This document shows positions 5,077 to 54,761 of a DNA stretch of 64,000 nucleotides, in pieces. The notes beneath the pieces are model-generated. The model searched no databases. It was given only the letters and a program-made list of their open reading frames with translations, and was not told the DNA's origin. Within the stretch, counting starts at the first letter, position 1. The number at the start of each line of letters is the position of its first letter. The stretch is from Rhynchopus sp. YZ270_cl-10. Lineage: Eukaryota. A program made the position numbers and the translations under genes. The DNA lies in assembly GCA_964035575.1 (NCBI GenBank), contig OZ037840.1:248001-312000 (forward strand), in the 5' to 3' direction.

Positions 5077-6129
5077 CAGGCACTCCGCTAGGTACTAAAG
5101 TTCTGTTGATTGTCAACAGAACTTTTTGAAAATGGGGGAAAAAAGAAAAAAAAAAAAAGTTCTGCTAAGTGGTTCAGACCCGTTCTACCTGTCAAAAAAG
5201 CTCAGGAGAAGAAGATATGGAGAGGTGAGTGCTTAAACGCAGGGCGTTCGCCCCGGGGCGAAAAATATTTTTTTTCGTTAAAAAAATCTTTTCCTGAAAA
5301 AATGACGTTTTATTTCGCCCCAGGGCTTCGCCCCACCGGGGCGAAACCCTGTATAAATAAATAAATAAATAAAAAAAGGGGAAAAAAAAAAAAAAAAGAG
5401 AGACAGATTTCTCCCCACCACCCTGTAGACCCCCCCGGAGGGGGGGTCGCAGAGGGGTGTCCACTGTACTCAAAATCATCCGCAAACCCGCCTGCCGTGA
5501 GAGGAAGTTTCCCCAGCACTCCCGCTCGCTCCTCAATCCTGCAGTCTGCTGAAGGTGTACCGTACCCCCTGTTATAGAAGGTGTCACTGCTCGTGTCAAC
5601 TCTATCTTCAATGGCAGAGAGTTGAAAATAATCAAAATAAGGATGAAGTCTCATATGACGGATGCCTCTCTCTTGTACATCTGCTTGATTAAACAACACA
5701 AAGAGACCCTCAGTGAGGGGGGATTGATGAAATTCTCCATCGTTTTGCTGGTTTTAGTATCAGGAAAGTTCAGCTGTAATATCACTTGTGCTGGGGAAGG
5801 GATCACGCACAAATCGCAAATTTTTTTTGACCATTCAGTACCAGGGATTCACCCCACGAACTAACTTCTCTCCGGCGGGGAAAATTTTTTTGACCTATTT
5901 TAAGCACTAGTAAAAAAACGAAAATTTCGGGGTTTTTGGCATTTCGCCACGATCAGGAAAAAACGATGGCGATAGCGAACGCCCTGCTTAAACGTCCCAA
6001 AAAAGTCAAAATCGGGCGTTGGTAAAAAAAAAAGTTGCGTACCGTGCGCCTGCGGCGCAAGCATGTACCCCACCAACGTGGACCATCAACAGAATATTTT
6101 CAAAATCGGAAATCCTAGCGGAGAGCCTG
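5077..6129. mobile_element. hAT-type MITE copy A (interrupted by the 747-bp element)
   Basis: TIR caggcactccgctagg / cctagcggagagcctg; 8-bp TSD aactcttc at 5069-5076 and 6130-6137. Confidence 0.9.
5240..5986. mobile_element. 747-bp hAT-type non-autonomous element, copy 1
   Basis: TIR cagggcgttcgc / gcgaacgccctg; 8-bp TSD cttaaacg; the empty site is visible in the MITE copy at 7545-7842; near-identical copy at 38168-38914. Confidence 0.92.
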
Positions 6130-6271
6130 AACTCTTCACAAAAAAAAAAAAAAAACACATGGCATATACTATGTTGTGAAGATGTGTGTGAAGTCCCATG
6201 CCCCGGAACACACCAATTACGGTCGATATTTTTTTTACGATTACGGTAATACATGTCACACTACACATAGC

Positions 6272-7893: not shown

Positions 7894-8304
7894 GAAAAAT
7901 TTCCCGCCCCACTCCAGGGACAGTTTCTTCTTCTTCTTCTTTGCATTTTTTTAAACCGCATCCCCCCTTCTTTAGGTGATGCACTCCACCCACTTCGCCC
8001 TTACCCTTCCGCAATCCATTTAATTTTCATTTCCCCCTAAATATGCAATTTTCTGACACACACACACACAAGTGGGCCATACTCCGTTCAGGCGTTACCC
8101 ACTCTAAACCCGTTATCAAACACACACACACACACAGGGGAATAGTAGGATCGGTAAGTAAAATTTGTTTTCGTTTGATTGCACAAAAATCCTCCTGTTT
8201 TGAGGGATGACGAAAGCAAGCTTTTCGTGGGAATAAGAACATAATCCTTTTCAGCATGGTGTTCCTCCTCCTCCTCCTCCCATTCCTGGACTCCTCCTGC
8301 TGAG

Positions 8305-9010
8305 TCAATCGGAATGGCGAACATTCTTTTTGGCTTGTGTATGAGAGAAGTACATGAACGAGAGTCCCATGAGCAGCAACGTTGCTGAAAGCACCGGACG
8401 CGCGAAGAGCCAAGCCACCGCAATGATGATCAACGTCAACGCCACCGAGAGCAGGAACACCGCCGTCCCAGTCACCCAACGCAGCACCGTGCCAAAGAAC
8501 GGCACGATGTCACCAACAACGTTAACAGGCTCGACACAGATCGACATCCCAATGTACAGCACAAAGAACCCAACCACCCTCAACACCCACAACAACAGGG
8601 TGTTCTGGCTGTGCCGTGCGGCAATCAAACTGGCTGCAGAGTGCGAACCCTTTCCTACCAAAGGCAACACCGAGTTGGGCGCTCCGGTGACCGTACCGTC
8701 TGACTGCATGATACCGACCACACTGATCTGTTCGTTGCTTGGGAAGTAATCGACGGAGACACGCAGATCACCTACCTGCGGCGAATGCGGCTGGGCTCCG
8801 AGGAAGACGTGGTTGCCCTGTACGTGAACATTTGCGCCAATGTTCTTCACATTGTCTGCGTTAAGAAAGAGCCTGCTCGTCGGCAGCGCTGACACCACCT
8901 CACTCGAAGCACGCAGCTCTCCAATCGCAATGTTATTTGCAGTCGTCCGCTGCATGGACAACGACAGAGCAGGGGAAGGGTTCTGATGGCCGTGGGGGAT
9001 CTTGAAGGAG
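8305..9010 (-). CDS. TMEM43: TMEM43/LUMA (DUF1625) family protein, exon 3 of 3
   Basis: Acceptor cacag at 9011-9015. Encodes (N)SFKIPHGHQNPSP..., PQVGDLRVS and four C-terminal TM helices (W.LRVVGFF..YIG; AWLFARP). Model join(11599-11970, 9365-9465, 8305-9010) = 1179 nt, 392 aa, with consistent phases. Confidence 0.88.
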
Positions 9011-9364
9011 CTGTGAGTGGGGGTGGTGGGGGAGGTGGTGTGGACATAATCTGATCAAGGTCACTTTTTCATGCAGTATTAGGGGGTTTGAAAACGTTTG
9101 TTTCAACTTTGTTGTGTTTTTGTTTTTGTTTTTGCTACTCTGTTTGTTTTGTATTGTATTTTCATTGTAGTACTTTGTAAGTTGAGAGGTAGGTGCACTT
9201 CTTTGTTAAGATAGCAGTATTAGGGGGATAAATGAGTGTGTTGCAGTCCAATGAGAGGATTCAGAAGGAAGCAGAATTAGTTTAAAATTGTTTGATTTTT
9301 AGAGGGGGGGGTGCAGCAAAGCGGCTAGGGGGGTATAAAAAGTGTGCGGGTCGTGGCGACATAC

Positions 9365-9465
9365 TTGGAGTTCTTGTACGACGACGACCAGGAGGTGTGG
9401 TAGTCGTAGTTCTTCACTGTGGTGGAGCTGCCTCCTTGCTTCTGCGTCTGGCTGCGGACAGTTTC
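9365..9465 (-). CDS. TMEM43: TMEM43 family protein, exon 2
   Basis: tccag|ETVRSQTQKQGGSSTTVKNYDYHTSWSSSYKNS|gtatgt; continues the EMFQWV-E motif; not in the ORF track. Confidence 0.85.
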
Positions 9466-9496
9466 CTGGATGTGTTGTGTGTTTTTATTTTTTATC

Positions 9497-11160
9497 TTAT
9501 TTATATCACATGTGAAAATGACTTTTTGCTGGGATCCTTCACAAACGGGGCGTGAAATAAAGTGAGCTTTTTTTCACGCTTGCTCTTAGTAATTTCGCTG
9601 GAGGCGTGAAAAAAAGTTTCACTGGCGTGAAAAAAAGTTTCACTGTTTTCTGTCAGTCACAAAACCACACACTCCACCCTACAAATCATGCCAAGGACCA
9701 AGAAGAAGGAGGCTATGGAGGATCTGTATGAGACCGAGCTTCTGGCAGGGTTGAAGTCAAGCACTGCATACAAAACGGAGTGGAATAAGTTTTTACAACA
9801 CAATAAAATCACGGGGCGGAAGCAGCCAAGAGAAGAACATGTGGTCTCTTACTTGACACACCTGCGCGAAGAACGCAGCTACAAAGCCAGCTCATTATGG
9901 TCGTGCTACTCTAAGCTCAACTTTATGTTCAAGACGGAGTTCGACTTTTCACTAAAGGAGTACCACCGCATCGGGCTGTTGCTGAAGACCTGGGGAAGTG
10001 ACGAATCGACGAAGAAGAGCAAGACGTTTTCGAAGGGAGAAGTGGAGATGTTTCTCAAGATGAGCGAGTTGAGCGACTGCTACTGGTGTGTCCGCAAGGC
10101 TTACGTCGCGGTGTGTTTTCTGTCGGGAATGAGATGCACAGAAGCACTGATGCTTGAGATGACAAATTATCAGGAATCACCAGTGGGATACCTCTTCACG
10201 TACCAGCACTGTGCTAAGGTGAAAAAGGCCGACATGGAGCGTGGGAGGTTTGTGGTACCAAGAGACAGCATCTACTTTTGTGTGGTGGAGGAGTACCTGA
10301 ACCGGCGCTCACCAGTTTCACAGGAGGGTCGCTTCTTCATCACTGGAACTAAGACGACAGCTGACAGAACTACTACTGGGACCTTTCGTGTGCAACCTCT
10401 TGGCATCAACAAAATGTACGGCATACCTGCAGAAGTCGCGAGGGTGCTTGCGCTGGACGGTTCGTACACTGGGCACAGCTTCCGCAGGTCTTCTGCGACT
10501 CAAGCCGCTGAGGCAGGAGCATCTATTGTACAGATGCAACGCCACTATGGGTGGGTCAGTCAGGCAATGCCACAAAGGTACACCGAAGTCACACAGGCCG
10601 GTCAAGTTGCGATGTCACAGCTGTTGACACAGAACAACAGTCCCCCAACTCAGACGCCACAAGAAGTCAAGATTAACATCAATGTGCAACAGAACAAACC
10701 ATGATCATGAGTGCAAAAAAAAAACCCCCCTTCTGTGATGCTCTATACACCTGCCCCCCCCCTACAGGCGAGATGAGTGGTGACATCTTGTAATTAGTAC
10801 CAGTCATAGGAGGCATATATCAAAAAAAGTAACCCCTTCCCTGCTTTTGATTGATGTTCACATGTTCCCCTACTCTCATTCACACTCTCACTTACAGGTA
10901 CCCACATTTTGTTCATAAAATCACTCTATTTTACGTCTCGTTTGTGAAGGATCCCAGCAAAAATATCATTTTCACTTGTAAAACAAAACTACGTATTAGT
11001 TTGAAATAAAGTGCGTTTTTTCACTTCCACGTATTTTGTCTCACTCGTGCTCTATTATTGCCCTCGCCTGCGGCTCGGGCAATAAACTCTCACTCGTGAG
11101 CCAAAATTACGTGGGCGTGAAAAAAAGTGCACTTTATTTCACGCTAATAATTAGTTATTT
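9497..11160 (+). mobile_element. Crypton-like tyrosine-recombinase DNA transposon in TMEM43 intron 1
   Basis: YR ORF flanked by inverted repeats at 9512-9565 and 10921-10975; long hairpin at 10995-11148; candidate terminal direct repeat ttattt (9497-9502 and 11155-11160; AT-rich, so the ends are uncertain); no RT or RNase H. Confidence 0.8.
9688..10704 (+). CDS. Tyrosine recombinase (phage integrase family), intact, 338 aa
   Basis: Catalytic R (SGMRCTE), K (AKVKK), HxxR (GHSFRRSSAT), H/W (RHYGW) and Y (PQRYTE); N-terminal core-binding-like region (YKASSLWSCYSKL); intronless; antisense to the host gene. Confidence 0.95.
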   Translation: MPRTKKKEAMEDLYETELLAGLKSSTAYKTEWNKFLQHNKITGRKQPREEHVVSYLTHLREERSYKASSLWSCYSKLNFMFKTEFDFSLKEYHRIGLLLKTWGSDESTKKSKTFSKGEVEMFLKMSELSDCYWCVRKAYVAVCFLSGMRCTEALMLEMTNYQESPVGYLFTYQHCAKVKKADMERGRFVVPRDSIYFCVVEEYLNRRSPVSQEGRFFITGTKTTADRTTTGTFRVQPLGINKMYGIPAEVARVLALDGSYTGHSFRRSSATQAAEAGASIVQMQRHYGWVSQAMPQRYTEVTQAGQVAMSQLLTQNNSPPTQTPQEVKININVQQNKP

Positions 11161-11222
11161 TTCAACGGAGTGTCCTATTTTTTTTTTCAGATTTGAGTCC
11201 TCATTTTAAATCGAGTACTTTG

Positions 11223-11332
11223 TCCACCTGATTTTCACCCCGCGGATAGGTCCGGATAGGCCCGTATAGGGCCGGATATGGCTGGATAGGGCCAAAAGCC
11301 GATTTTTTTTTGGGAGGGTAAAATCAGGTGGA
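11223..11332. mobile_element. 110-bp MITE in TMEM43 intron 1
   Basis: TIR tccacctgatttt(c)accc / gggtaaaatcaggtgga; flanking tttg duplication; internal (ccggatagg)-like tandem; the same terminus recurs near 15739. Confidence 0.65.
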
Positions 11333-11598
11333 TTTGTACAACCATGTAAAACTAGAAAAAAGTGTCACCTTGCCGTTCCCTCACCTCCCCTTCTTTGTAG
11401 TTGTTTGATGTTGACGCTTCCACACAAACAAAATAAAGTTGATAGTGCAAACCGCCTCTGGCACGCAGGCACTGACACTCCTCGGTCTATCATCCCGCCC
11501 CCCTCCCCGGGGGGCTGCATATGAGAGCGGCTGACAGATCTCAACAAACATTGCCTTACGCCTCTCTCCTTCAAAACCCTTCTTTACGGCTAACATAC

Positions 11599-11970
11599 CA
11601 CCCATTGGAACATCTCGGTGCTTCGTGACATCTTGACAGCTTCGACTTGCACCGTGAACGGCCCGACTGTATCAGTAATCATCTCCCCAGTGATGACACC
11701 TGTGAAGTGGATCGGGTTGGAGGCGAACCCAGCGGCGATCTTCAGGGGCGGGTCGTGCCCGATCTCCTTCAGGTTCGAGGAGAGGTAGTCAAGCTCCTTG
11801 GCCACCTCGACGGCGTTCTGCTCGTTGAAGAAGAGTACCATGGGGGCAAGAACGGCAAGCATCACCCAGCCAAAGCAGGCCCCACACAGCGACCCTGCAA
11901 CGCGCGAGCCATACGAGTTGTGCGTCACCTCCACATAGCTGTGCGGGCCTGTCTGGAATCCGTTGCGCAT
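11599..11970 (-). CDS. TMEM43: TMEM43 family protein, exon 1
   Basis: MRNGFQTGPHSYVEVTHNSYGSRVAGSLCG...LFFNEQNAV...MSRSTEMFQWV|gtatgt; a pyrimidine tract plus cag lies ~20 nt upstream of the ATG (likely trans-splice acceptor). Confidence 0.85.
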
Positions 11971-12186
11971 TTGTGTATGTGAGTTGTCTGGTGAGAAAGG
12001 GAGGGTGGAAGAGAGAGAGAGAGATGTGGGCTGATGTGCATGGCGTAGTCTCTTGTCATGTGTCATGTGATAAGTGAAATGAAAAAGGTAGTTTTCTATT
12101 TGTCGTTGGTTGTTTGTTGGATCGCATCCGCCCTCGTCCGTACTTCAGGAAAAAATAAACGGTTATTTTGGGTGGTTTAAAATCCC

Positions 12187-12345
12187 TGGGGTGATCAGGG
12201 GTAGTATTCTGCCAAAAAATTCGCAAAACCCGGAATGCGAATCGCAAAAATTCGCAAAAATTCGCACTGCGAATTTTTCGCATTTTTTCCCCGATTTTTC
12301 CTGGTTTGCGAATTTCGTAGCAGAATACTACCCCTGATCACCCCA
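12187..12345. mobile_element. MITE, TGG..CCA ends, 5-bp TSD
   Basis: 26-bp TIR tggggtgatcaggggtagtattctgc; TSD atccc at 12182-12186 and 12346-12350; internal aattcgca repeats. Confidence 0.8.
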
Positions 12346-12737: not shown

Positions 12738-14582
12738 TCACTCTAATTTCTCTAACACAGCCTTGCTGCATTTCTTCTTTCCGTACAATGTAGGAGAACA
12801 TTTACAAAGGAAATACTCCTCTACCTCCACGACATTACTCAAGGGAGAGAGATCAAGTTCTGTCAGCGAAGAACAGCTCTGCAGGAACTGCTCCTTGATC
12901 CCTCTCACAGTGAGCAAGCCAGAGAGATTAAGTTCTTCCAAAGCTGTACAATCCTTGAGAAAGTAGGAACGAATCGCAGTTACCCTCACAAAGGAAGAGA
13001 GATCAAGTTGTGTCAGAGAAGTGCACCCCATAAGGAATGACTTCTCAATCGCTGTGACACTGCTCAATGGAGTGAGGTCGATTTCTTTCAAAGATCTGCA
13101 GTACTGCAGGAAGTGAGGCCCAACTGAAGTGACACCACTAAAGGGAGAAAGATCAAGTTGTGTCAGAGAAGTGCACTCGTACAGGAACTGATCCTGAATC
13201 ACTGTGACCCTGCTCAAGGGAGTGAGATCAAGTTCTTTCAAGGCTTTGCAGTCCCGAAGGAAGTGAGTCCCAACTGAAGTGACACTGGTCAAACCAGAGA
13301 TGTCAAGTACTTCCAAGCTGGCGCAATTCTGCAGAAACCCGTTCCCAATCGAAGCAATGCCAGACACAGCGCTGAGATCAAGACTCACGAAAGTTGCTCC
13401 GAAGAAGAATCTCATTGGAATCGCAGTCGCAACACCTGCCTGAAGAAGCAAACAAGCCACCTTCGCATCCGTCACTTCCGCCAACCTCGCTGCTGTCAGG
13501 TTTTTCTCACCCAATGCATCAAGTGCTGCAATGGCTACCTGCTCCTTCGTCTGCTTCTGCACAATCCTGTCAGCACTCAGCTGTGTCATGTCCTCTCCTT
13601 CTCCCATCACCTCACCCCTGAAACACATCCCAAAGCTGTTTCCAGGCAACTTTGTTGCAGACGCCACCTTCCGACGCAAGCCACACAGCGTGTCATCCAC
13701 ACTCACCTCAATCAAGTGTTCCACTCCATCCACACCCTCCACAAGCACAGGCACGACAAGTCCCAACCTCTGGCCAAGAGCGTCGTGCACGTCCGACACA
13801 GGCAGCGTCAGGGAAAACTCTGCGTGTGGGTATGCAGCACCCACAAGGCGGTGGCGGTCTCCGCACGCTGCCATGCTCTCGATGCTCCGCACAACGGCCT
13901 GCGACTCTGTTGCCGCACGCAGCGCCTGGTCGTCCCCAAGCAGACACACCTGCTCGCACTCGTCAATCATGTGTTCTGCCTTCGCAACAAACGTCTTCAG
14001 CGCACACACCTGCCCTGCAGCACTCAGTGCCTGTGTGAGGAAGCTCCGTGCCAACGCCTCCTCACACACGACGTTGCTACGCCACACATCCTCACCCATC
14101 AACAGGTGTCCGACGTGTGTCTGCAGGAGAAGGTCTTTGTACCTGGCCTCTGGGGGTTCGGCTGCCTCAAGCACACAGCACTCCTCATCTGCAGCAGCCC
14201 GCTGCTTCGTCAGGTCTGCCGCGTGTGAGCGCAGGATGCAGCGCTGGCGTGCAACGTACTCAGAGATTTCGATTGTGTTGTGTCCCGCATGTTCGCGCTT
14301 CTCACAGCGGACACAGATCATTGCGTCTCCACACGCAGGGTCTTCACAGACAAGGTGCAGCTTGAACTCTGGGTGCAGTGCACAGTTCGGCGATGCCCCG
14401 TACCAAGTCACAGAAGCAAGATGCATCTCACGGTCGCGTACCCTCGGGTGTAAAGCTTCGAAGCAGGCAGGATTGTCGCAGAAGAACAGTTCTTTACAAT
14501 GTCCACACTGCAGCTGTGCAGGTGCCGAACAGCTCTCACACAAAGGCATCTGTGGTGCGGTGGGCTCCATGTCACAGACCAT
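12738..14582 (-). CDS. Tandem B-box + coiled-coil + ubiquitin-like + BspA-type LRR protein
   Basis: B-box1 CESC..CGHC..CDNPAC..H; B-box2 CALH...VCEDPAC..ICVRC...HAGH; UBL (IEVSVDDTLCGLRRKVA); ~9 24-aa LRRs (LxxLDLSPLSxVTxIxxxFLxxC). ATG at 14582 follows a pyrimidine tract and gaag. Confidence 0.88.
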   Translation of the reverse strand: MVCDMEPTAPQMPLCESCSAPAQLQCGHCKELFFCDNPACFEALHPRVRDREMHLASVTWYGASPNCALHPEFKLHLVCEDPACGDAMICVRCEKREHAGHNTIEISEYVARQRCILRSHAADLTKQRAAADEECCVLEAAEPPEARYKDLLLQTHVGHLLMGEDVWRSNVVCEEALARSFLTQALSAAGQVCALKTFVAKAEHMIDECEQVCLLGDDQALRAATESQAVVRSIESMAACGDRHRLVGAAYPHAEFSLTLPVSDVHDALGQRLGLVVPVLVEGVDGVEHLIEVSVDDTLCGLRRKVASATKLPGNSFGMCFRGEVMGEGEDMTQLSADRIVQKQTKEQVAIAALDALGEKNLTAARLAEVTDAKVACLLLQAGVATAIPMRFFFGATFVSLDLSAVSGIASIGNGFLQNCASLEVLDISGLTSVTSVGTHFLRDCKALKELDLTPLSRVTVIQDQFLYECTSLTQLDLSPFSGVTSVGPHFLQYCRSLKEIDLTPLSSVTAIEKSFLMGCTSLTQLDLSSFVRVTAIRSYFLKDCTALEELNLSGLLTVRGIKEQFLQSCSSLTELDLSPLSNVVEVEEYFLCKCSPTLYGKKKCSKAVLEKLE

Positions 14583-15419
14583 GTTGTCCTTCAAAGCAAG
14601 GGGAGGGGAGGGAAGGGAAGGTCTCTGTGGGTTGTGGTGTCGTGAATGTTATGAATCCCCCTCGCCACTCCAGAGAAAGGTGTGTGTTTCTACTGCCGAC
14701 AACGACGGAGGAAGCAACGACCCTGCGGACGTGGTTCGGAGACAGGAAGATGAACGACGCGCATGCCAATGGCTGGTGGCACAGCCCAAGCCAGCCACGG
14801 CATTGAAGAGTGAAGAAAGGAAGGACACTGAGGAGTGCTGGTGCCGGAATGTGAACAGGTTCGCGGGAGTAGGGTGAGAGGGGGAAATACAGAAAAAGAA
14901 CGCCTTTTGCTTTTTATTTGTGTGGATGTTAAAAATACTACAGTGCCAAGAGCTATCTTCACCCACGCAGGAAAAGGGGAAACAAAATAGGGGGTGAGTT
15001 TGTTAGTTGTACGCTTCCACGTGGATCTTGAAAAACAAAAGAAAAACAAAAACACCCTCCAGTTATCCCCTTGTGTCGAAACTCTTTACTTTTTTCTGAA
15101 AATGAAAAGGGTGCTTGTCAAAGTGGGGAAGTGTTCAAAAATGTAAAAAGCGTGTATTTTTGTGTGTCAAGTGAACAAAAAAACCACCTCGCGGCGTTTT
15201 GTTTCGGTAACAAAACAGAAAGTAAGACAGATGAACCTTAGCCTGTGTTCAGTCACTGAAGAGAAGTGAAGAGAAAAGAAAAATGTCAGCAAAAGAGTTA
15301 TCAAAGAAGTGAACACTTACCCTCATGAGGACAGTTGGCTTGGCAATAGAAACACAAGGTAATGGAAACAGCACAGGAGAGGTGCTGTCACCTGCTTCCA
15401 ATATTATTTTTTTTTTGAT

Positions 15420-16859: not shown

Positions 16860-17873
16860 TCACTCTAATTTCTCTAACACAGCCTTGCTGCACTTCTTCT
16901 TTCCGTACAATGTGGGAGAACATTTACAAAGGAAACGTGTCCCTACCTCCAAGACATTACTCAAGGGAGAGAGATCAAGTTCTGTCAGCGAAGAACAGTT
17001 GTACAGGAACTGATCCTTAATCTCTCTCACATTGAGCAAGCCAGAGAGATTAAGTTCTTCCAAAGCTGTACAATCCCTGATAAAGTAGGTATGAATCATA
17101 GTTACTCTCACAAAGGAAGAGAGATCAAGTTGTTTCAGGGAAGTACACTTGTACAGGAATGACATTTCAATCGCTGTGACACTGCTCAATAGAGTGAGAT
17201 CGATTTCTTTCAAAGATGTGCAGAACTGCAGGAAGTGAGGCCCAACTGAAGTGACACCACTAAAGGGAGAAAGATCAAGTTGTGTCAGAGAAGTGCACTC
17301 GTACAGGAACTGATCCTGAATCACTGTGACCCCGCTCAAGGGAGTGAGATCAACTTCTTTCAAGGCTTTGCAGCCCTTAAGGAAGTGATGCCCAACTGAA
17401 GTGACACTGGTCAAACCAGAGATGTCAAGTACTTCCAAGCTGGCGCAATTCTGCAGAAACCCGTTCCCAATCGAAACAATGCCAGACACAGCGCTGAGAT
17501 CAAGACTCACGAAAGTTGCTCCTGATAAGAATCTCCTTGGAATCGCAGTCGCAACACCTGCCTGAAGAAGCAAACAAGCCACCTTCGCATCCGTCACTTC
17601 CGCCAACCTCGCTGCTGTCAAGTTTTTCTCACCCAATGCATGAAGAGCTGCAATGGCTATGTACCGCTCCGTCTTCGTCAAGACGACTGTGTCCCCGGCA
17701 CTCAGTTCTGTGATGTCCTCCCCTTCCCCCTTCCCTCCGAAGCCCATATGAAAGCTGTCTTCGCACAACCCCGTTGCAGACGCCACCTTCTGCCGCATCG
17801 TCTCCGTTGTGTCATCCTCACCCACCTCAATCACGTAGTCCGTTTCCCCAAACCCCTGGATCGTCAGTTCCAT
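16860..17873 (-). CDS. Ubiquitin-like + BspA-type LRR protein, tandem paralogue of 12738-14582
   Basis: 337-aa ORF; UBL N-terminus (YVIEVGEDDTTETMRQKVA); LRR region and 3' flank (~16615-17660) highly similar to ~12440-13560. Confidence 0.9.
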   Translation of the reverse strand: MELTIQGFGETDYVIEVGEDDTTETMRQKVASATGLCEDSFHMGFGGKGEGEDITELSAGDTVVLTKTERYIAIAALHALGEKNLTAARLAEVTDAKVACLLLQAGVATAIPRRFLSGATFVSLDLSAVSGIVSIGNGFLQNCASLEVLDISGLTSVTSVGHHFLKGCKALKEVDLTPLSGVTVIQDQFLYECTSLTQLDLSPFSGVTSVGPHFLQFCTSLKEIDLTLLSSVTAIEMSFLYKCTSLKQLDLSSFVRVTMIHTYFIRDCTALEELNLSGLLNVREIKDQFLYNCSSLTELDLSPLSNVLEVGTRFLCKCSPTLYGKKKCSKAVLEKLE

Positions 17874-18084
17874 ATTGTGTTGCCTCTATCTCTACAGGGT
17901 GGGTTGCTGTGTTGTGGGGAAAGGAACAACAAGGCTCCTCGAAGTGTTACGCCCGCCAGTCCATTCGGACTCGTATAGACCCGGTTGGAGACACGGAGTC
18001 TGGATGTGAACTTGGAAGGTGGCCGTTCGCCGAAGCTAGACTTGGCCACGATAAACTCATGTGCCCTGAAATATTTCACGTATG

Positions 18085-23491: not shown

Positions 23492-25201
23492 CCAGGCTTT
23501 GCGCTAACTTCTGTCCTTTGTCCCGGGATTTTTGGATATTTTTGTGGTGCGTTTTTTTTTTGCAAACCGGGGTTTCCTTAAGAAAACCAGAGAATCTCAT
23601 ATTTCATAGTAAGGGTACTTTAGAGTGTTTTCACACACACACATGTGACCCCACCGTGGAGAGCAATCGGCTCGCGCGATCAAAAGAAAGCAGAGAAGAG
23701 GGAAAAGAAAAAAAGAAAAAAGTTGGGTACCGTGCGCCTGCGGCGCTACCTGTTCCTACCCTCCTTTATGTTTAAACATGATGTACTTATGTACAGTTCA
23801 TTTTATTTTGAGTACGACTCCACATCCCCCCTGAGGATGATCTCCCCTCCCTCACGGATAAAGATTGATTAGGACGCCGTGGGGCACACCCCCTCCGAGG
23901 CCATAACCGTCCTGGGTTTTCTCACTCTTCTCTGTGGTCACTGAAACCCACAGCCATCACTACGTTACCGATAGCTTCTTCAGTACGTTGGGTTTTCAGA
24001 CCTGAAAATAACCCTTGTTTACGAGTATGGGCTCATGTTTTGTCAAATTTTAAGTCGCTTGGTGTGGCTGAAACCAGCAAATTTCACTGCTAAAGAACTG
24101 CTAACAAACTGCTAAATAATACCCTTTTTTTAGGGGTGGTGTATAAAAACATTTTTTTACCTTGGTTTTTCCACTCCCCCTGTTGGCGCGCCTCCACTCT
24201 TGCATACCCATGTGTGACCCCACCGTTGAACGCAATCGACTCGCTGAGTCAAAAGAACGCACAGAACGGGGCTGGAAAAAATCACGAAAAACGCGTACCG
24301 TGCGCCTGCGGCGCCCACAAAGTGAGTTTTCCCCCTGAGTATGCTGTGTATACTGTGTATACTGTGTATACTGTGTATACTGTGGAAATTGACCAAAAAC
24401 GAGAACTTGTTCATTTCGGCGAATTGACCCCACCACTGGCCGGACGGATTCCGGAAATGCAAATGCCGGCGTTAAAAAGCTCACCAACGAAAAAAAAAAT
24501 TTTTTTTTCCATCACCCGTGGGGAAAATTTTTTTTATACACCACCCCCCCAAAAATGCATGCTAACAAAGTGCTAACAAACTGCTAAATAATACCCTTTT
24601 TTTTGGGTTCAGCCACACCATCGCTGCATTTTTGTCCATTTTTCCGTACATCCCCCACCACAATCCGGGATTGGTTCGGAAATGCAACAAAACGACCTCT
24701 TGGCGGGGAAAAGCCACAGGAAATTTATGCACTTTTTGCAAACAGGGGTTTCCTTACTAAAACCAGAGGAATCTCATCGTTCAGAGTAAGAGTACTTTAG
24801 AGTGTTTTTGGACACACATGTGACCCCACCGTGGAGAGCAATCGGCTCGCGCGATCAAAAGAAAGCAGAAAAAAGGGAAACATAAAAAGACAAAAGTTGG
24901 GTACCGTGCGCCTGCGGCGCTACCTGTTCCCAGTAAAAACACCACAATTTCATCTGAATTTGGGTTTTCAGACCTGAAAATGCCCCTTGTTTAAGAGTAT
25001 GGGTTCATATTTTGTGAAAAGTTAAGTCACTAAAAGTTTGTCCATTTTCCCGAATATGCCCCACCACAGCGCGGGATTGGCTCGGAAATGCCACAAAACA
25101 CTGTTTTTTCACCCCCTGACGCACAACTATTTGAGGTGCGTTTTTTTGGTCCCGAAACACGTTTTTTCAGATTTTTTTCCAAAAGTTAGCGCGAAGCCTG
25201 G
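23492..25201. mobile_element. TIR element CCAGG..CCTGG inserted in a TA run
   Basis: TIR ccaggctt(t/c)gcgctaactt; tatata on both sides; contains internal repeats of the shared ~120-bp module. Confidence 0.75.
24060..24620. mobile_element. MITE TGGTGTGGCTGAA, 5-bp TSD, copy 1 (short 9-mer array)
   Basis: TIR tggtgtggctgaa / ttcagccacacca; TSD tcgct; inverted homologue at 51721-52496. Confidence 0.88.
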
Positions 25202-36406: not shown

Positions 36407-37342
36407 TATGCAAAAAAAAGGGGGAGGGGGGGAAAAAAACGTACCTAGTCCCTAAGCCAATGAAGGGGGACGATACTCTACTGCAGGGGGTTTTGAATGC
36501 AACCTCCCTGCAGTAGTGTTCTCTTGGCATCCTGCCATGCACTCTCTTTTCTCCTCTCCATTTTTGTTTTTTTGAAAACTTTTTTTAACCATTCCTTTTT
36601 TAGGAACGGAACTATGTACGGTCCTGGAAGCTCCAAGAAAATGGGAGTCGGCGGGCTTAATAGGAAGTTGCCTTTCTAAACGTGCACAAAAAAAAAAACT
36701 TGGTTGTATTAGTGTAGCCACCCTAGAGTGTGCTCCACTATTTTTTTTTTTTTTCGTTTGCTTCGCTCATGAAGGTGGGAGGGGAAAGGGTGGGCGCTGG
36801 TTTGTGATGAAAGGAACAAATACCATTTGACAACGTTGGGAGGGTTTTTGCTCTCTGATGTATTAAAAAAAAATTGACTGGTGAAATACAAAGCCCTCTT
36901 GGGACAGTGTACCTAAAAAAAAATAGGTTGGGGGAGGATGGAGAACAGGAAGAAAAAACGACTTGACATGACACGATCACCCCAAACTACACCTTTCCTA
37001 CAGACAGAACTGAACAGAACAAAAGAGTGAGAGAGAGAAATTTGGTAAAAAAAATTGGCAAAAAGAACATCCGAAGCTTTGCTGTGTTATGGAGATGCTG
37101 CTTTTTTTCAACAAAGGGAAGCCTCTTTTTTACTTTCAACGGATGTCATCCGTCCGATTTTGAGAAACCCCCCCCCCTCCCCCCCCGGAGAAGATTGTAA
37201 ATTTGGCAACCTGAAGTTTTCGGCTTTTGGACAGACGTAAAAAAATTCGAAAACCAGCGGAAGTGGATTTCCGAGCTCCCCGCTTTTCACCACAAAAAAA
37301 ATCGACCACTTTAGTGGAGTAGAAGTTAATTTAAAGTGGCTC

Positions 37343-37813
37343 CAGTACACAGTACACAGTACACAGTACACAGTACACAGTACACAGTACACAGTACACA
37401 GTACACAGTACACAGTACACAGTACACAGTACACAGTACACAGTACACAGTACACAGTACACAGTACACAGTACACAGTACACAGTACACAGTACACAGT
37501 ACACAGTACACAGTACACAGTACACAGTACACAGTACACAGTACACAGTACACAGTACACAGTACACAGTACACAGTACACAGTACACAGTACACAGTAC
37601 ACAGTACACAGTACACAGTACACAGTACACAGTACACAGTACACAGTACACAGTACACAGTACACAGTACACAGTACACAGTACACAGTACACAGTACAC
37701 AGTACACAGTACACAGTACACAGTACACAGTACACAGTACACAGTACACAGTACACAGTACACAGTACACAGTACACAGTACACAGTACACAGTACACAG
37801 TACACAGTACAGT
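37343..37813. repeat. (GTACACA)n satellite, ~67 units
   Basis: Perfect tandem array. Confidence 0.97.
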
Positions 37814-38167
37814 GAAGTCAATTTAAAGGCTCCATGGGTCTTTATACAGTAACGTATAGGGGTCGGCTCCACCAAAAGTTGCGTACCGTGGAGTGTGTTC
37901 CTGAATAAAAAAAATGGTCGGAATTGAAAGATTCGTAAAAAAAAAATCCAAAGGAAAAAAATCGAAAACCTTCTTCAAAAGAAATCCAACTTAGAGACGC
38001 CACTGTGCTGCGACCCAAAGAGGAGGTTTTCTTAAGGAATTCCTTCAGAAACCTGCGTAGAAACGTTCCCAAAGGGGGTACCACAGCCAAAAATCACCTA
38101 ACCATCCACAGAGGCATAAAAAAAATCGTGCGACCCCGGAATTGAACGTTTTCGTAACCGATCTTTC

Positions 38168-38914
38168 CAGGGCGTTCGCCCCGGGGCGAAAAATATTTTT
38201 TTTCGTTAAAAAAATCTTTTCCTGAAAAAATGACGTTTTATTTCGCCCCAGGGCTTCGCCCCACCGGGGCGAAACCCTGTATAAATAAATAAATAAATAA
38301 AAAAAGGGGGAAAAAAAAAAAAAAAGAGAGACAGATTTCTCCCCACCACCCTGTAGACCCCCCCGGAGGGGGGGTCGCAGAGGGGTGTCCACTGTACTCA
38401 AAATCATCCGCAAACCCGCCTGCCGTGAGAGGAAGTTTCCCCAGCACTCCCGCTCGCTCCTCAATCCTGCAGTCTGCTGAAGGTGTACCGTACCCCCTGT
38501 TATAGAAGGTGTCACTGCTCGTGTCAACTCTATCTTCAATGGCAGAGAGTTGAAAATAATCAAAATAAGGATGAAGTCTCATATGACGGATGCCTCTCTC
38601 TTGTACATCTGCTTGATTAAACAACACAAAGAGACCCTCAGTGAGGGGGGATTGATGAAATTCTCCATCGTTTTGCTGGTTTTAGTATCAGGAAAGTTCA
38701 GCTGTAATATCACTTGTGCTGGGGAAGGGATCACGCACAAATCGCAAATTTTTTTTGACCATTCAGTACCAGGGATTCACCCCACGAACTAACTTCTCTC
38801 CGGCGGGGAAAATTTTTTTGACCTATTTTAAGCACTAGTAAAAAAACGAAAATTTCGGGGTTTTTGGCATTTCGCCACGATCAGGAAAAAACGATGGCGA
38901 TAGCGAACGCCCTG
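38168..38914. mobile_element. 747-bp hAT-type element, copy 2
   Basis: Same TIRs, length and ORF translations as 5240-5986; 8-bp TSD gatctttc. Confidence 0.92.
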
Positions 38915-51720: not shown

Positions 51721-52496
51721 TGGTGTGGCTGAACCCAAAAAAAAGGGTATTATTTAGCAGTTTGTTAGCACTTTGTTAGCATGCATTTTTGGGGGGGTGG
51801 TGTATAAAAACTTTTTTCCCCACGGGTGTTGGAAAAAAAAATTTTTTTTTTCGTTGGTGAGCTTTTTAACGCCGGCATTTGCATTTCCGGAATCCGTCCG
51901 GCCAGTGGTGGGGTCAATTCGCCGAAATGGACAAGTTCTCGTTTTTGGTCAATTTCCGCAGTATACACAGTATACACAGTATACACAGTATACACAGTAT
52001 ACACAGTATACACAGTATACACAGTATACACAGTATACACAGTATACACAGTATACACAGTATACACAGTATACACAGTATACACAGTATACACAGTATA
52101 CACAGTATACACAGTATACACAGTATACACAGTATACACAGTATACACAGTATACACAGTATACACAGTATACACAGTATACACAGTATACACAGTATAC
52201 ACAGTATACACAGCATACTCAGGGGAAAACTCACTTTGTGGGCGCCGCAGGCGCACGGTACGCGTTTTTCGTGATTTTTTCCAGCCCCGTTCTGTGCGTT
52301 CTTTTGACTCAGCGAGTCGATTGCATTCAACGGTGGGGTCACACATGGGTATGCAAGAGTGGAGGCGCGCCAACAGGGGGAGTGGAAAAACCAAGGTAAA
52401 AAAATGTTTTTGTACACCACCCCTAAAAAAAGGGTATTATTTAGCAGTTTGTTAGCAGTTCTTTAGCAGTGAAATTTGCTGGTTTCAGCCACACCA
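51721..52496. mobile_element. MITE TGGTGTGGCTGAA, copy 2 (expanded 9-mer array)
   Basis: 5-bp TSD ttata; reverse-complement homologue of 24060-24620. Confidence 0.9.
51959..52213. repeat. (GTATACACA)n satellite, ~28 units
   Basis: Tandem array. Confidence 0.97.
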
Positions 52497-53356: not shown

Positions 53357-54761
53357 CAGGGCATATCCTAAATATGAGGTCTGAGCGGCCAAATTTGCCA
53401 AAAGGGTGCAAAAAAAAAGGGGCGGATTTTTTTTTTTGATTTTTTTTCCAGGTTTCATCGTTGGTGGCGCTTTTAAACATCGGCATTTGCATTTCCGGAA
53501 TCCGTCCGGCCAGTGGTGGGGTCAATTTGCCGAAATGGACAAGTTCTCGTTTTTGGTCAATTTCCTCAGTACACAGTATACACAGTATACACAGTATACA
53601 CAGTATACACAGTATACACAGTATACACAGTATACACAGTATACACAGTATACACAGTATACACAGTATACACAGTATACACAGTATACACAGTATACAC
53701 AGTATACACAGTATACACAGTATACACAGTATACACAGTATACACAGTATACACAGTATACACAGTATACACAGTATACACAGTATACACAGTATACACA
53801 GTATACACAGTATACACAGTATACACAGTATACACAGTATACACAGTATACACAGTATACACAGTATACACAGTATACACAGTATACACAGTATACACAG
53901 TATACACAGTATACACAGTATACACAGTATACACAGTATACACAGTATACACAGTATACACAGTATACACAGTATAGTACACACGGGGTCCACCAATCGT
54001 TTGGATTGTCGACATTTCGCAGAGTCACCAAAGTGTAAGATTTTTTCGGCATTGGAAAGATTGGGCCATTTCTGAGAACTTCAATAAATCAGATCTCTGA
54101 GAGATTTGTTTTTAATTCCCATTTTCATGTCGCGAGTTTACGTGGAAACGCCTTTGAAACCGTGTGTTCTTTAAGGATTCTTTAGGCAAAACAGGCGTTT
54201 TGCACCAAAAACCACAAGTTTCAACACAAAACCCGGTTTTTTGGCCCAGACCCGTGTATGTGGCGCCGAAAACACGCTTGCGCGTTATCAGAACCCTGCG
54301 TGGGCCACACACGGTCGTGCACACGTGCCCTTTGCCTTGTCACACAACCCACGTTTTCACACCCAAAAACGACAAAGCCGTTTGTGGGCAAAAACCACCC
54401 AAAAACCCACACACAGGGGTTTGCGAGTGTTAAGGATTAGCAAACCCAAATATACAGTACACAGTACACAGTACACAGGTACACAAAAAACTAGAAAACG
54501 ACACTTCGCTGCGACCACGGGCCACCCCATAGGGGGTGAATTTTTTCACACCGAAAATGGTGTTTTTGGACTGTTTCGCACCAGATCTTTCCAAATATTT
54601 TTTTTACGGGCACTTTTGTCAAGTAGGTTTCCCCTTAGACCCCCTAGACCCCTCGTGCAAAAAAAGGGGGCAACGTGGGACCTTATAGCCGTGCAAAAAA
54701 AAGGGGCGCACTTTTTTTCAAAAACCCGCGGGTACCGGGTACAGACTTAGGATATGCCCTG
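53357..54761. mobile_element. hAT-type element containing a 9-mer satellite
   Basis: TIR cagggcatatcctaa; 8-bp TSD cctttcag; apparently inserted into the end of a tggtgtgactgaa mini-element starting ~53225. Confidence 0.88.
53573..53975. repeat. (GTATACACA)n satellite, ~45 units
   Basis: Tandem array. Confidence 0.97.

What the first reader, a model, noticed from the sequence alone, without database searches (positions are those of the whole stretch)
9497..11160. Intact Crypton-like tyrosine-recombinase element inside a protist TMEM43 intron
Seen: an intronless 338-aa YR with all catalytic residues (R-K-HxxR-H/W-Y), antisense within intron 1 (9466-11598) and starting ~30 bp from the 3' splice site. 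It has no RT or RNase H, so it is not DIRS-like. It is bracketed by ~55-bp inverted repeats (9512-9565 / 10921-10975), followed by a terminal hairpin, and has a candidate 6-bp terminal direct repeat ttattt. Established: Cryptons are YR-only DNA transposons with short terminal direct repeats, described mainly from fungi, stramenopiles and animals. Inference: a compact (~1.7-kb), potentially active euglenozoan YR element, a group in which I know of no described Crypton. The protein resembles arthropod-type YRs, so horizontal transfer is possible. It is the only intact mobile-element enzyme in the window.
Basis: partly seen in the sequence, partly recalled or inferred. Interest (0 to 1): 0.88.

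Follow-up and report, generated by a model that had tools for sequence, protein, structure and literature searches.

The report
Active recombinase transposon inside TMEM43 intron
A 1.66-kb jumping gene whose only gene is an intact Cre-like DNA recombinase sits inside an intron of a TMEM43 gene and occurs in dozens of near-identical copies; it likely moved very recently, probably as a DNA circle, and its two ends match an internal stretch in a way so far described only for DIRS retrotransposons.

Summary
Window 9688-10704 (+) is an intact 338-aa tyrosine recombinase (PF00589; R149, K176, H263, R266, W289 and Y298 conserved; predicted Cre-like fold). It lies antisense in a TMEM43 intron (9466-11598), and a contig in one public run shows that intron removed exactly.

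It is not a domesticated gene. The identical protein is called on 37 contigs. Element unitigs run at about 60-80 times the depth of the flanks. At least four different left flanks and four different right flanks exist. The shared sequence is 9500-11162 (1,663 bp).

There is no RT or RNase H here or beside relatives, so it is best filed as a Crypton-type, recombinase-only DNA transposon. It is an atypical one. The joined ends match the reverse complement of internal 10917-11038 (107 of 121 letters), which is the geometry of a DIRS-1 internal complementary region. The non-coding parts carry lox-like 13-bp inverted repeats.

Relatives (1,770 hits; 1.5-1.8-kb, recombinase-only) carry the same large palindrome, but on the other side of the gene. 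One relative shows a tail-to-head joint.

The euglenozoan host, horizontal transfer from arthropods and the TTATTT terminal repeat are not supported or could not be tested.

The parts
9500..11162 (+). Mobile element: the sequence shared by all copies, 1,663 bp. The 6 nt before it (9494-9499, ATCTTA) are shared with at least one other copy.
   Evidence: Element unitigs start at 9500 in X1, X5, X6 and X9 and end at 11161/11162 in X1, X5, X6 and X8. Single-copy flank unitigs end at 9525-9528, which is k-1 into the element. Loose ends with unrelated sequence begin at 9494/9500 and at 11162/11163.
9688..10704 (+). Tyrosine recombinase gene, 338 aa, no intron.
   Evidence: AlphaFold2 model with mean pLDDT 88.4. 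Best Foldseek matches are Cre-DNA complexes, TM 0.72-0.76 over about 330 columns.
9500..9571 (.). Left terminal arm, complementary to the first part of the internal complementary region. It begins with TTTATATCAC, 9 of 10 letters like the CTTTATTTCAC half-site.
   Evidence: (I1, I5); the half-site match was read.
9550..9579 (.). Lox-like 30-bp palindrome: 13-bp arm GCGTGAAATAAAG, spacer TGAG, then the inverted 13-bp arm.
   Evidence: I3, 93% complementary to 11115-11144; 13-mer found 13 times at <=2 mismatches against 4.2 expected, 6 of the 13 inside the element.
9603..9644 (.). Two tandem 21-nt units, each holding the 17-bp palindrome GTGAAAAAAAGTTTCAC, just upstream of the ATG.
   Evidence: (D1).
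10917..11038 (.). Internal complementary region: the reverse complement of the joined termini (11102-11162 followed by 9500-9571).
   Evidence: 107 of 121 aligned letters identical, score 155. 200 shuffles gave mean 24.7 and maximum 38.
10981..11162 (.). Imperfect palindrome of about 180 nt (hairpin) forming the right end; its centre is near 11070.
   Evidence: 74.6% over 185 nt; -52.3 kcal/mol, z = -9.8; palindrome score 62, z = 43.
11115..11144 (.). Second lox-like 30-bp palindrome (spacer TGCA), inverted relative to 9550-9579, 18 nt from the right end.
   Evidence: (I3, I8).
9466..11598 (-). Host intron of the TMEM43 gene that holds the element. It also holds other repeats at 11223-11332 and 11322-11623.
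   Evidence: GT..AG read. An X5 contig joins 9466 to 11600.
8305..8961 (-). Downstream TMEM43 exon (C-terminal part of the protein).
   Evidence: PF07787, E 1.3e-33.

Best explanation
This is one copy of a 1,663-bp mobile element, present in dozens of near-identical copies, whose only gene is an intact Cre-like tyrosine recombinase; it most likely moves as a Crypton-type DNA transposon, predicted to excise as a circle and to re-insert by site-specific recombination into T-rich sites.

Shown directly:
- the intact gene and its catalytic residues;
- the copy number, the sharp shared ends and the different flanks of other copies;
- the absence of RT here and beside relatives;
- the repeated GTGAAA-type motifs and two lox-like 13-bp inverted-repeat sites;
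- the complementarity of both termini to internal 10917-11038.

Inferred:
- the recombinase binds the GTGAAA(A/T)AAAG half-sites;
- the ends are joined into a circle whose joint (..TTAGTTATTTTT + TTTATATCAC..) is the crossover site;
- integration uses short similarity with T-rich target sequence;
- the internal complementary region and hairpin hold the two ends together, or present the site, during recombination.
For: Mobility and recency:
- The identical 338-aa protein is called on 37 contigs, a one-residue variant on 4, and five further variants or fragments on 1 each.
- Element unitigs have k-mer depth 6,050-6,263 against 97.6-100.6 for the flanking unitigs in X1 (about 62-fold), and 5,524-6,263 against 75.7 in X3. 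This is a rough proxy; the tool warns that depth is not a copy number.
- Unitigs of 380-705 nt at full depth mean that most copies are identical over those stretches.
- Other copies have unrelated flanks that are absent from the window: three on the left (X3, X5, X9) and three on the right (X3 twice, X6), plus a variant that diverges at 11158.
- The insertion at this locus is spanned by single-copy unitigs in X1, X2, X3 and X4.

Enzyme:
- PF00589, conserved catalytic residues and a full two-domain Cre-like model.

Recombinase-only state is ancestral in the family:
- 1,770 relatives at E<=1e-3, most of 300-450 aa.
- 0 of 19 longer relatives carry RT or RNase H.
- Many relatives sit on contigs of 1.66-1.75 kb.
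- Among 85 ORFs scanned in relatives' metagenome loci, 1 is an RT, and it lies 5.7 kb from the recombinase.

Evidence from relatives:
- A relative family (L037, L039, L044, L046, L053) is 98.7-99.7% alike over about 1,541 bp in five different flanks, with ends TTGTAG...GGATAA.
- L037 begins with a tail-to-head joint, GGATAA|TTGTAG, as a circle or a tandem would give.

Cis sites:
- GTGAAA occurs 14 times in the element, 8.4 per kb against 0.71 per kb in the rest of the window.
- A similar GTGAAATAAAG..TTTTTTACAC palindrome lies in relative L002, whose protein is 32% identical.
Against: - No circular or tandem joint and no empty site for this family was seen. Only assembled contigs could be examined, and they cannot show absence.
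- Cryptons are described as lacking terminal inverted or long repeats (PMC3212892 and PMC13465315, passages read). This element has a 67-nt inverted pair, a 180-nt hairpin and an internal complementary region, the hallmark of DIRS retroelements that use a single-stranded cDNA (PMC7192593, passages read).
- The flanks seen are unpaired, so no target duplication or crossover core is established.
- 0 of 33 family members hit DUF3504, the CryptonA signature.
- No Repbase Crypton sequences could be compared.
Confidence: 0.7

Rival explanations
1. A DIRS-type element that has lost its reverse transcriptase. It would be copied through RNA into single-stranded cDNA by an RT supplied in trans. The internal complementary region would act as the splint that brings the two ends together, as in DIRS-1, and its own recombinase would integrate the product.
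For: - The geometry matches DIRS-1. An internal region near the right end is complementary first to the left terminus and then to the right terminus (DIRS-1 description in PMC7192593, passages read).
- That paper reports that the DIRS-1 RT can act in trans.
Against: - No RT lies in the element or in the 71 window ORFs scanned.
- 0 of 19 longer relatives carry RT. 1 of 85 ORFs in relatives' loci is an RT, and it is 5.7 kb away.
- The compact recombinase-only form recurs in families only 25-40% identical. That fits an autonomous design, not a recent deletion.
- There are no long inverted terminal repeats, only a 30-bp subterminal one.
Confidence: 0.12
2. A recombinase-only element whose substrate is folded single-stranded DNA. 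The long imperfect palindrome across the joint would fold into a hairpin that rebuilds a double-stranded recombination site, as integron attC sites and the CTX phage attachment site do (both recalled, not checked here).
For: - The stem is very stable (-52.3 kcal/mol, z = -9.8).
- In a circle the stem would extend across the joint to about 150 nt per arm.
- Strong palindromes (score >=40, z >=5) recur next to the gene in 11 of 61 sequences with an ORF of >=300 aa: L001, L002, L007, L012, five copies of one family, L074 and the window.
Against: - No single-stranded intermediate is known for eukaryotic recombinase-only elements.
- Nothing here measures strandedness.
- The palindrome is equally compatible with double-stranded binding sites arranged as inverted repeats.
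Confidence: 0.1
3. A domesticated, single-copy host gene derived from a recombinase.
For: The reading frame is intact and the catalytic residues are conserved.
Against: The gene is multicopy with different flanks. It lies antisense inside an intron and is bounded by sharp repeat ends.
Confidence: 0.01
4. A fragment of a larger viral or giant element, or an assembly or contamination artefact.
For: Recombinases of this superfamily occur in viruses. The runs holding the stretch carry several coded organism labels.
Against: - Both junctions are spanned by contigs in several runs at single-copy depth.
- The flanks on both sides belong to one spliced host gene.
- A scan of IMG/VR found 0 relatives. 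The scan was pattern-limited.
Confidence: 0.02

Closest known systems
Crypton DNA transposons (Kojima and Jurka 2011, PMC3212892, passages read; summary in PMC13465315, passages read)
   Same: A tyrosine recombinase is the only enzyme; there is no RT. Copies are small and interspersed. The proposed route is an excised circle followed by site-specific integration at short similar sequences. Animal Cryptons likewise lack an extra C-terminal domain.
   Different: Cryptons are described as having no terminal inverted or long repeats, and at most 4-6-bp direct repeats. This element has a 67-nt inverted pair, a 180-nt terminal hairpin, an internal region complementary to both ends, and iterated lox-like sites. 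It has no DUF3504 signature (0 of 33) and no GCR1_C domain. Grouping with CryptonF/S/A/I sequences was not tested.
DIRS-1 and DIRS-like retrotransposons (PMC7192593, passages read)
   Same: An internal complementary region near the right end pairs first with the left terminus and then with the right terminus, so that the joined ends mirror it. Integration is by a tyrosine recombinase.
   Different: No gag, RT, RNase H or methyltransferase. No long inverted terminal repeats. The complementarity is 88%, not exact. The element is 1.66 kb against 4.8 kb for DIRS-1.
Cre/loxP of phage P1
   Same: Best structural match: TM 0.72-0.76 over the whole protein. The candidate sites are built from 13-bp inverted repeats.
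   Different: 15-16% sequence identity. The spacer in the 30-bp palindromes is 4 bp, against 8 bp in loxP (recalled). The element is a eukaryotic multicopy transposon. Binding was not tested.
VIPER and TATE of kinetoplastids (PMC6681497, abstract and passages read)
   Same: Recombinase-encoding mobile elements of protists. That paper reports their recombinases as close to Crypton in trees.
   Different: They carry gag, RT and RNase H and split direct repeats. No such repeats or genes are present here.

Membership tests
Tyrosine recombinase superfamily (PF00589, Cre/Xer/Int) | Pfam match above the curated cut-off | tested here: met
   37.2 bits against 27.1, E 3.3e-9.
Tyrosine recombinase superfamily (PF00589, Cre/Xer/Int) | Catalytic R, K, HxxR, H/W, Y | tested here: met
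   R149, H263, R266, W289 and Y298 are invariant and K176 is >=90% conserved in 33 sequences.
Tyrosine recombinase superfamily (PF00589, Cre/Xer/Int) | Two-domain fold (core-binding plus catalytic) | tested here: met
   Model with pLDDT 88.4. Matches Cre at TM 0.72-0.76 over about 330 columns. This is a prediction, not a solved structure.
Crypton DNA transposons | Recombinase is the only enzyme; no RT or RNase H | tested here: met
   One long ORF in 1,663 bp. Relatives likewise.
Crypton DNA transposons | Interspersed multicopy element with different flanks | tested here: met
Crypton DNA transposons | Short (4-6 bp) terminal direct repeats as crossover substrates | tested here: inconclusive
   TTATTT lies at both ends of this copy, but only 2 of 4 left flanks complete it. 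The flanks are T-rich and unpaired.
Crypton DNA transposons | No terminal inverted or long repeats | tested here: not met
   67-nt inverted pair, 180-nt hairpin and 122-nt internal complementary region.
Crypton DNA transposons | Recombinase groups with CryptonF/S/A/I reference sequences | not testable with these tools
   No Repbase sequences were available. 0 of 33 family members hit DUF3504. One distant relative, P0095, has recombinase plus BTB domains, the same domain order as KCTD1 isoform b described in PMC3212892.
Crypton DNA transposons | Extrachromosomal circular intermediate | not testable with these tools
   Only assembled contigs were on hand. A tail-to-head joint was seen only in a 27-29% identical relative family (L037).
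DIRS-like retrotransposons | RT/RNase H (and gag, often a methyltransferase) | tested here: not met
DIRS-like retrotransposons | Internal complementary region matching both termini | tested here: met
   107 of 121 letters identical, score 155 against a maximum of 38 in 200 shuffles.
DIRS-like retrotransposons | Long inverted terminal repeats | tested here: not met
   Only a 30-bp subterminal inverted motif (I3).
Ngaro/VIPER/PAT-like elements | Split direct repeats A1 ... B1 A2 B2 | tested here: not met
   The only long direct match (48 nt, 79%) is itself the palindromic motif (D2).

The most novel reading that the evidence does not exclude
A widespread family of 1.5-1.8-kb recombinase-only transposons uses a DIRS-1-style internal complementary region. 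A linear or single-stranded copy would fold so that both ends are splinted side by side on an internal template, and the recombinase would then act on that folded joint. That would make the family the missing link between Cryptons and DIRS retroelements: the DIRS end-joining logic would predate the capture of a reverse transcriptase. It would also be a eukaryotic counterpart of recombinases that act on folded DNA.
Probability: 0.2. Interest if true: 0.8.

Novelty: new variant of a known kind. Interest (0 to 1): 0.58.

Why it matters
Recombinase-only (Crypton-type) transposons are the least understood class of eukaryotic DNA transposons. No transposition intermediate or recombination site has been defined for them in the papers read here.

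This family offers an unusually clean system:
- dozens of near-identical copies with an intact gene;
- ends defined to within 3 nt;
- iterated candidate binding sites;
- a predicted joint sequence that can be tested directly.

An internal region complementary to both ends, in an element without RT, bears on how DIRS retroelements arose. It also shows that 'no terminal repeats' is not a safe criterion for annotating Cryptons.

The same design recurs in metagenome contigs and in beetle genomes, so the family is probably under-annotated.

The insertion lies about 31-34 nt from a 3' splice site, and the contig lacking the intron has exactly the join that accurate splicing would produce.

Tried and rejected
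- Whole genome: none is held for this window. Copies with paired flanks, empty sites and any RT-bearing partner could therefore not be collected.
- RNA: no RNA holder is listed. Run X5 has no recorded type. Its contig lacking the intron is reported only as a join.
- Joints: no 11162-to-9500 (circle or tandem) joint and no skip from about 9499 to 11163 (empty site) appears among the joints listed for the contigs of 8 runs. Many rows were not shown, and contigs cannot show absence.
- Odd joints 9493-to-11997 (X1, X4; 21 letters on the short side) and 9724-to-10703 (X2; 21 letters) were not followed up. They are probably low-complexity matches or a deleted copy.
- Circular contigs among relatives: 0 of 80 loci have terminal overlaps.
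- Viral origin: the IMG/VR scan found 0 relatives. The prokaryote genome scan also found 0. Both scans depend on one or two peptide patterns.
- Rfam on the whole window: 0 matches.
- Taxonomy: a TMEM43 search found only the window's own protein and one 28% relative. Three window proteins form one-member clusters without names. The Atlas look-up of the Ras-like GTPase (IFT27-like) was uninformative.
- Our own scan holds nothing on this genome or this protein.
- A 33-sequence alignment was too diverse for the search for related loci. A 6-sequence alignment worked.
- 'Second gene' in distant relatives: rejected. The upstream ORF is the recombinase's own N-terminal domain, so the gene is split there, probably by an intron.
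- TTATTT as a fixed terminal repeat: not consistent across copies.
- Tree: the careful search did not finish, so the quick tree was used.
- Literature: 0 papers hold both 'Crypton' and 'diplonemid'. Three hold 'Crypton' and 'Euglenozoa', and none of them describes one (listing only). None of the 12 papers listed for 'Crypton' + 'tyrosine recombinase' + 'palindrom' describes this architecture, judged by title and abstract.
- The supplements of PMC10161547 (repeat catalogue) were not read.
Full report
**What is there**

Window 9688-10704 (+) is an uninterrupted 338-aa ORF. It matches PF00589 above the curated cut-off (37.2 against 27.1 bits) and, weakly, an N-terminal SAM-like domain. In an alignment with 32 relatives, R149, H263, R266, W289 and Y298 are invariant and K176 is >=90% conserved. 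An AlphaFold2 model built on that alignment (mean pLDDT 88.4) matches Cre-DNA complexes over its whole length (TM 0.72-0.76, about 330 columns, 15-16% identity). By sequence alone, Cre and Tre are only marginal hits (E 0.16-0.97).

**Host gene**

The gene is on the minus strand. The exon at 8305-8961 is TMEM43 (PF07787, 1.3e-33). Reading, an upstream exon ends ..QWV at 11599 and is followed by GTATGT. The next exon starts at 9465 (ETVRSQ..) after AG. That gives an intron at 9466-11598.

A 1,019-nt contig in run X5 covers 9380-9466 and continues with 28 letters that are exactly window 11600-11627. The intron, element included, is precisely absent from that contig. The run's type is not on record. 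The join is what a spliced transcript would give; an intron-less DNA copy is the alternative.

The upstream exon alone gave no Pfam hit. Its likeness to the human 'QWVE' stretch is recalled, not tested.

**It is a multicopy mobile element, not a host gene**

- The window's exact protein (P0002) was called on 37 contigs, a one-residue variant on 4, and five more variants or fragments on one contig each.
- In Logan contigs of run X1, the element is three unitigs (9500-9967, 9993-10697, 10782-11161) at k-mer depth 6,050-6,263. The flanking unitigs (8181-9105, 9186-9526, 11285-12200) are at 97.6-100.6.
- In X3 the figures are 5,524-6,263 against 75.7.
- The tool warns that depth is not a copy number. 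As a rough proxy it suggests 60-80 copies, in line with the gene calls.
- Long unitigs at full depth mean that the copies are nearly identical, which points to very recent amplification.
- Element contigs start at 9500 in four runs and end at 11161/11162 in four runs.
- Other copies run on into unrelated sequence: before 9500 in X3 and X9, before 9494 in X5, behind 11162 in X6 and X3, and behind 11163 in X3. A variant diverges at 11158. None of these flanks occurs in the window.
- The insertion at this locus is itself spanned by single-copy unitigs in X1-X4.

**Ends and target**

The shared sequence is 9500-11162 (1,663 bp). The six letters before it (ATCTTA) recur in one other copy. The other two left flanks end ..TATTTTCC and ..TTTTTTT. 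Right flanks begin CAACGG (window), CTTGTGC, TTTTTTTT and TTGAGA. The flanks are T-rich and resemble the last eight letters of the element (TTATTTTT). They are unpaired, however, so neither a target duplication nor a crossover core can be fixed.

**Cis-architecture**

- The left 66 nt (9500-9565) are complementary to 10921-10987 (85% over 67 nt).
- 10981-11162 is an imperfect palindrome (74.6% over 185 nt; -52.3 kcal/mol, z = -9.8).
- Taken together, the joined ends (11102-11162 followed by 9500-9571) are collinear with the reverse complement of 10917-11038. 107 of 121 aligned letters are identical, with score 155 against a maximum of 38 in 200 shuffles.
- That is the geometry given for the DIRS-1 internal complementary region. 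It lies near the right end, its first part is complementary to the left terminus, and the rest is complementary to the right terminus (PMC7192593, passages read).
- Equivalently, a circular form would hold a palindrome with arms of about 150 nt centred near 11070, with the joint about 90 nt off centre.
- GTGAAA occurs 14 times in the element (8.4 per kb against 0.71 per kb elsewhere).
- The 13-mer GCGTGAAAAAAAG occurs 13 times in the window at <=2 mismatches against 4.2 expected, and 6 of the 13 lie in the element.
- These motifs form two 30-bp lox-like palindromes (9550-9579 and 11115-11144, mutually inverted) and two 17-bp palindromes just upstream of the ATG.
- The left terminus itself begins with a near-copy of the half-site.

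**Relatives**

An exhaustive profile-free search found 1,770 proteins at E<=1e-3 and 393 at E<=1e-10. The best non-self hit is 40% identical. Most are 300-450 aa.

- None of 19 longer relatives carries RT or RNase H. One has a BTB domain after the recombinase.
- 0 of 33 hit DUF3504.
- The only named relatives are beetle proteins.

I built a quick tree of 50 near-full-length rows, out of 183 stored proteins. P0176 was left out for short coverage and P0009 was trimmed. In that tree the window protein groups with two unnamed proteins (SH-aLRT 98). The five beetle proteins sit in a separate long-branched clade. This gives no sign of recent transfer from arthropods.

Many relatives sit on contigs of 1.66-1.75 kb.

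**Metagenome loci of relatives (80 fetched)**

- None has terminal overlaps.
- One of 85 ORFs scanned in these loci is an RT, and it lies 5.7 kb from the recombinase.
- Strong palindromes (score >=40, z >=5) lie next to the gene in 11 of 61 sequences with an ORF of >=300 aa. Further moderate ones occur among the closest relatives.
- In all of these except the window, the large palindrome is upstream of the gene.
- In L001, L002 and L012 the stretch right after the palindrome pairs with a stretch downstream of the gene. That is a circular permutation of the window's layout.
- One family (L037, L039, L044, L046, L053) has five copies that are 98.7-99.7% alike over about 1,541 bp in different flanks. 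Its ends are TTGTAG...GGATAA and the palindrome is at the left terminus. L037 starts with a tail-to-head joint.
- L001 and L006 (78% alike) place the right end at the end of the downstream arm.

The family therefore shares one circular map, but the integrated form is opened on one side of the palindrome in the window's family and on the other side in at least two relative families. In the window's genome the mirror site (about 10981-10990) is contiguous at full depth, so only one side is used there.

**Mechanism**

The best-supported reading is an autonomous recombinase-only DNA transposon of the Crypton kind. The recombinase is predicted to bind the GTGAAA-type half-sites, join the ends into a circle, and integrate that circle at T-rich sites. 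All of these steps are inferred.

The internal complementary region is unexplained by the classical Crypton model. It supports two rivals: mobilisation through single-stranded cDNA by an RT acting in trans, or recombination on folded single-stranded DNA. Conservation of the compact RT-less design across families only 25-40% identical argues for autonomy.

**Knowns and novelty**

- Cryptons are described as lacking terminal inverted or long repeats. Animal Cryptons have no terminal repeats at all (PMC3212892 and PMC13465315, passages read).
- DIRS elements carry the internal complementary region but also RT, RNase H and gag.
- Kinetoplastid VIPER and TATE are retroelements (PMC6681497, abstract and passages read).
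- I found no paper holding both 'Crypton' and 'diplonemid'. None of the listed papers describes a Crypton with this architecture (listings only).
- The Diplonema papillatum genome paper reports transposable elements within introns and more than 60 ORFs resembling TATE, MULE or Helitron proteins. It does not mention recombinase or Crypton in its main text (passages). Its supplements were not read.
- Whether the window comes from a diplonemid could not be tested.
- Earlier notes of this scan list several Crypton-like elements in other eukaryotes. A Crypton in one more lineage is therefore not surprising in itself. The architecture and the apparent current activity are the points of interest.

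Noticed in passing
window 11322-11623: A much higher-copy repeat lies in the same TMEM43 intron. Summed contig depth is about 79,000 in X1, against about 99 for single-copy flanks.
   Followed up: no
window 11223-11332: A MITE-like unit with perfect 13-bp terminal inverted repeats (TCCACCTGATTTT / AAAATCAGGTGGA) around a 10-bp tandem motif (I11). It lies just right of the element and is moderately repeated.
   Followed up: no
window 5195-5753 and 38048-38681 (-): The same ORF translations appear at both places, so this is a dispersed repeat. No Pfam family was found.
   Followed up: partly
window 24104-24573, 37241-37849, 51870-52462, 53440-54088: Satellite arrays are open in all six frames and give YTVHST-type peptide repeats.
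   Followed up: no
window 12741-14648 (-) and 16863-17885 (-): Two paralogous proteins carry BspA-type leucine-rich repeats (LRR_5, 5.5e-23 and 1.2e-32). The longer one has a weak B-box match.
   Followed up: partly
L037 1-58; L039 80-1623; L044, L046, L053: A relative element family of about 1,541 bp sits in metagenome contigs, in five different flanks. L037 carries a tail-to-head joint. Three of 4 left flanks end in TA or TAA, like the element's right end. The L045 copy lacks the palindrome.
   Followed up: partly
L015, L023-L025, L038, L040, L051, L056, L059, L066: In a more distant subfamily the recombinase gene is split into two ORFs about 400-500 nt apart. The upstream ORF is the N-terminal domain, so an intron is likely.
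   Followed up: partly
recombinase residues about 325-338 and relatives' C-termini: A short tail of alternating hydrophobic residues and Asn (..ININV.. / ..tlNf) is conserved at the C-terminus across the family. It has low confidence in the model. It may act in trans between protomers, as the C-terminal helix of Cre does (recalled).
   Followed up: no
window 9466-9500: The element ends about 31-34 nt from the host 3' splice site. The sequence upstream of that site on the coding strand is A-rich, not pyrimidine-rich. The contig lacking the intron nevertheless has the exact join.
   Followed up: no
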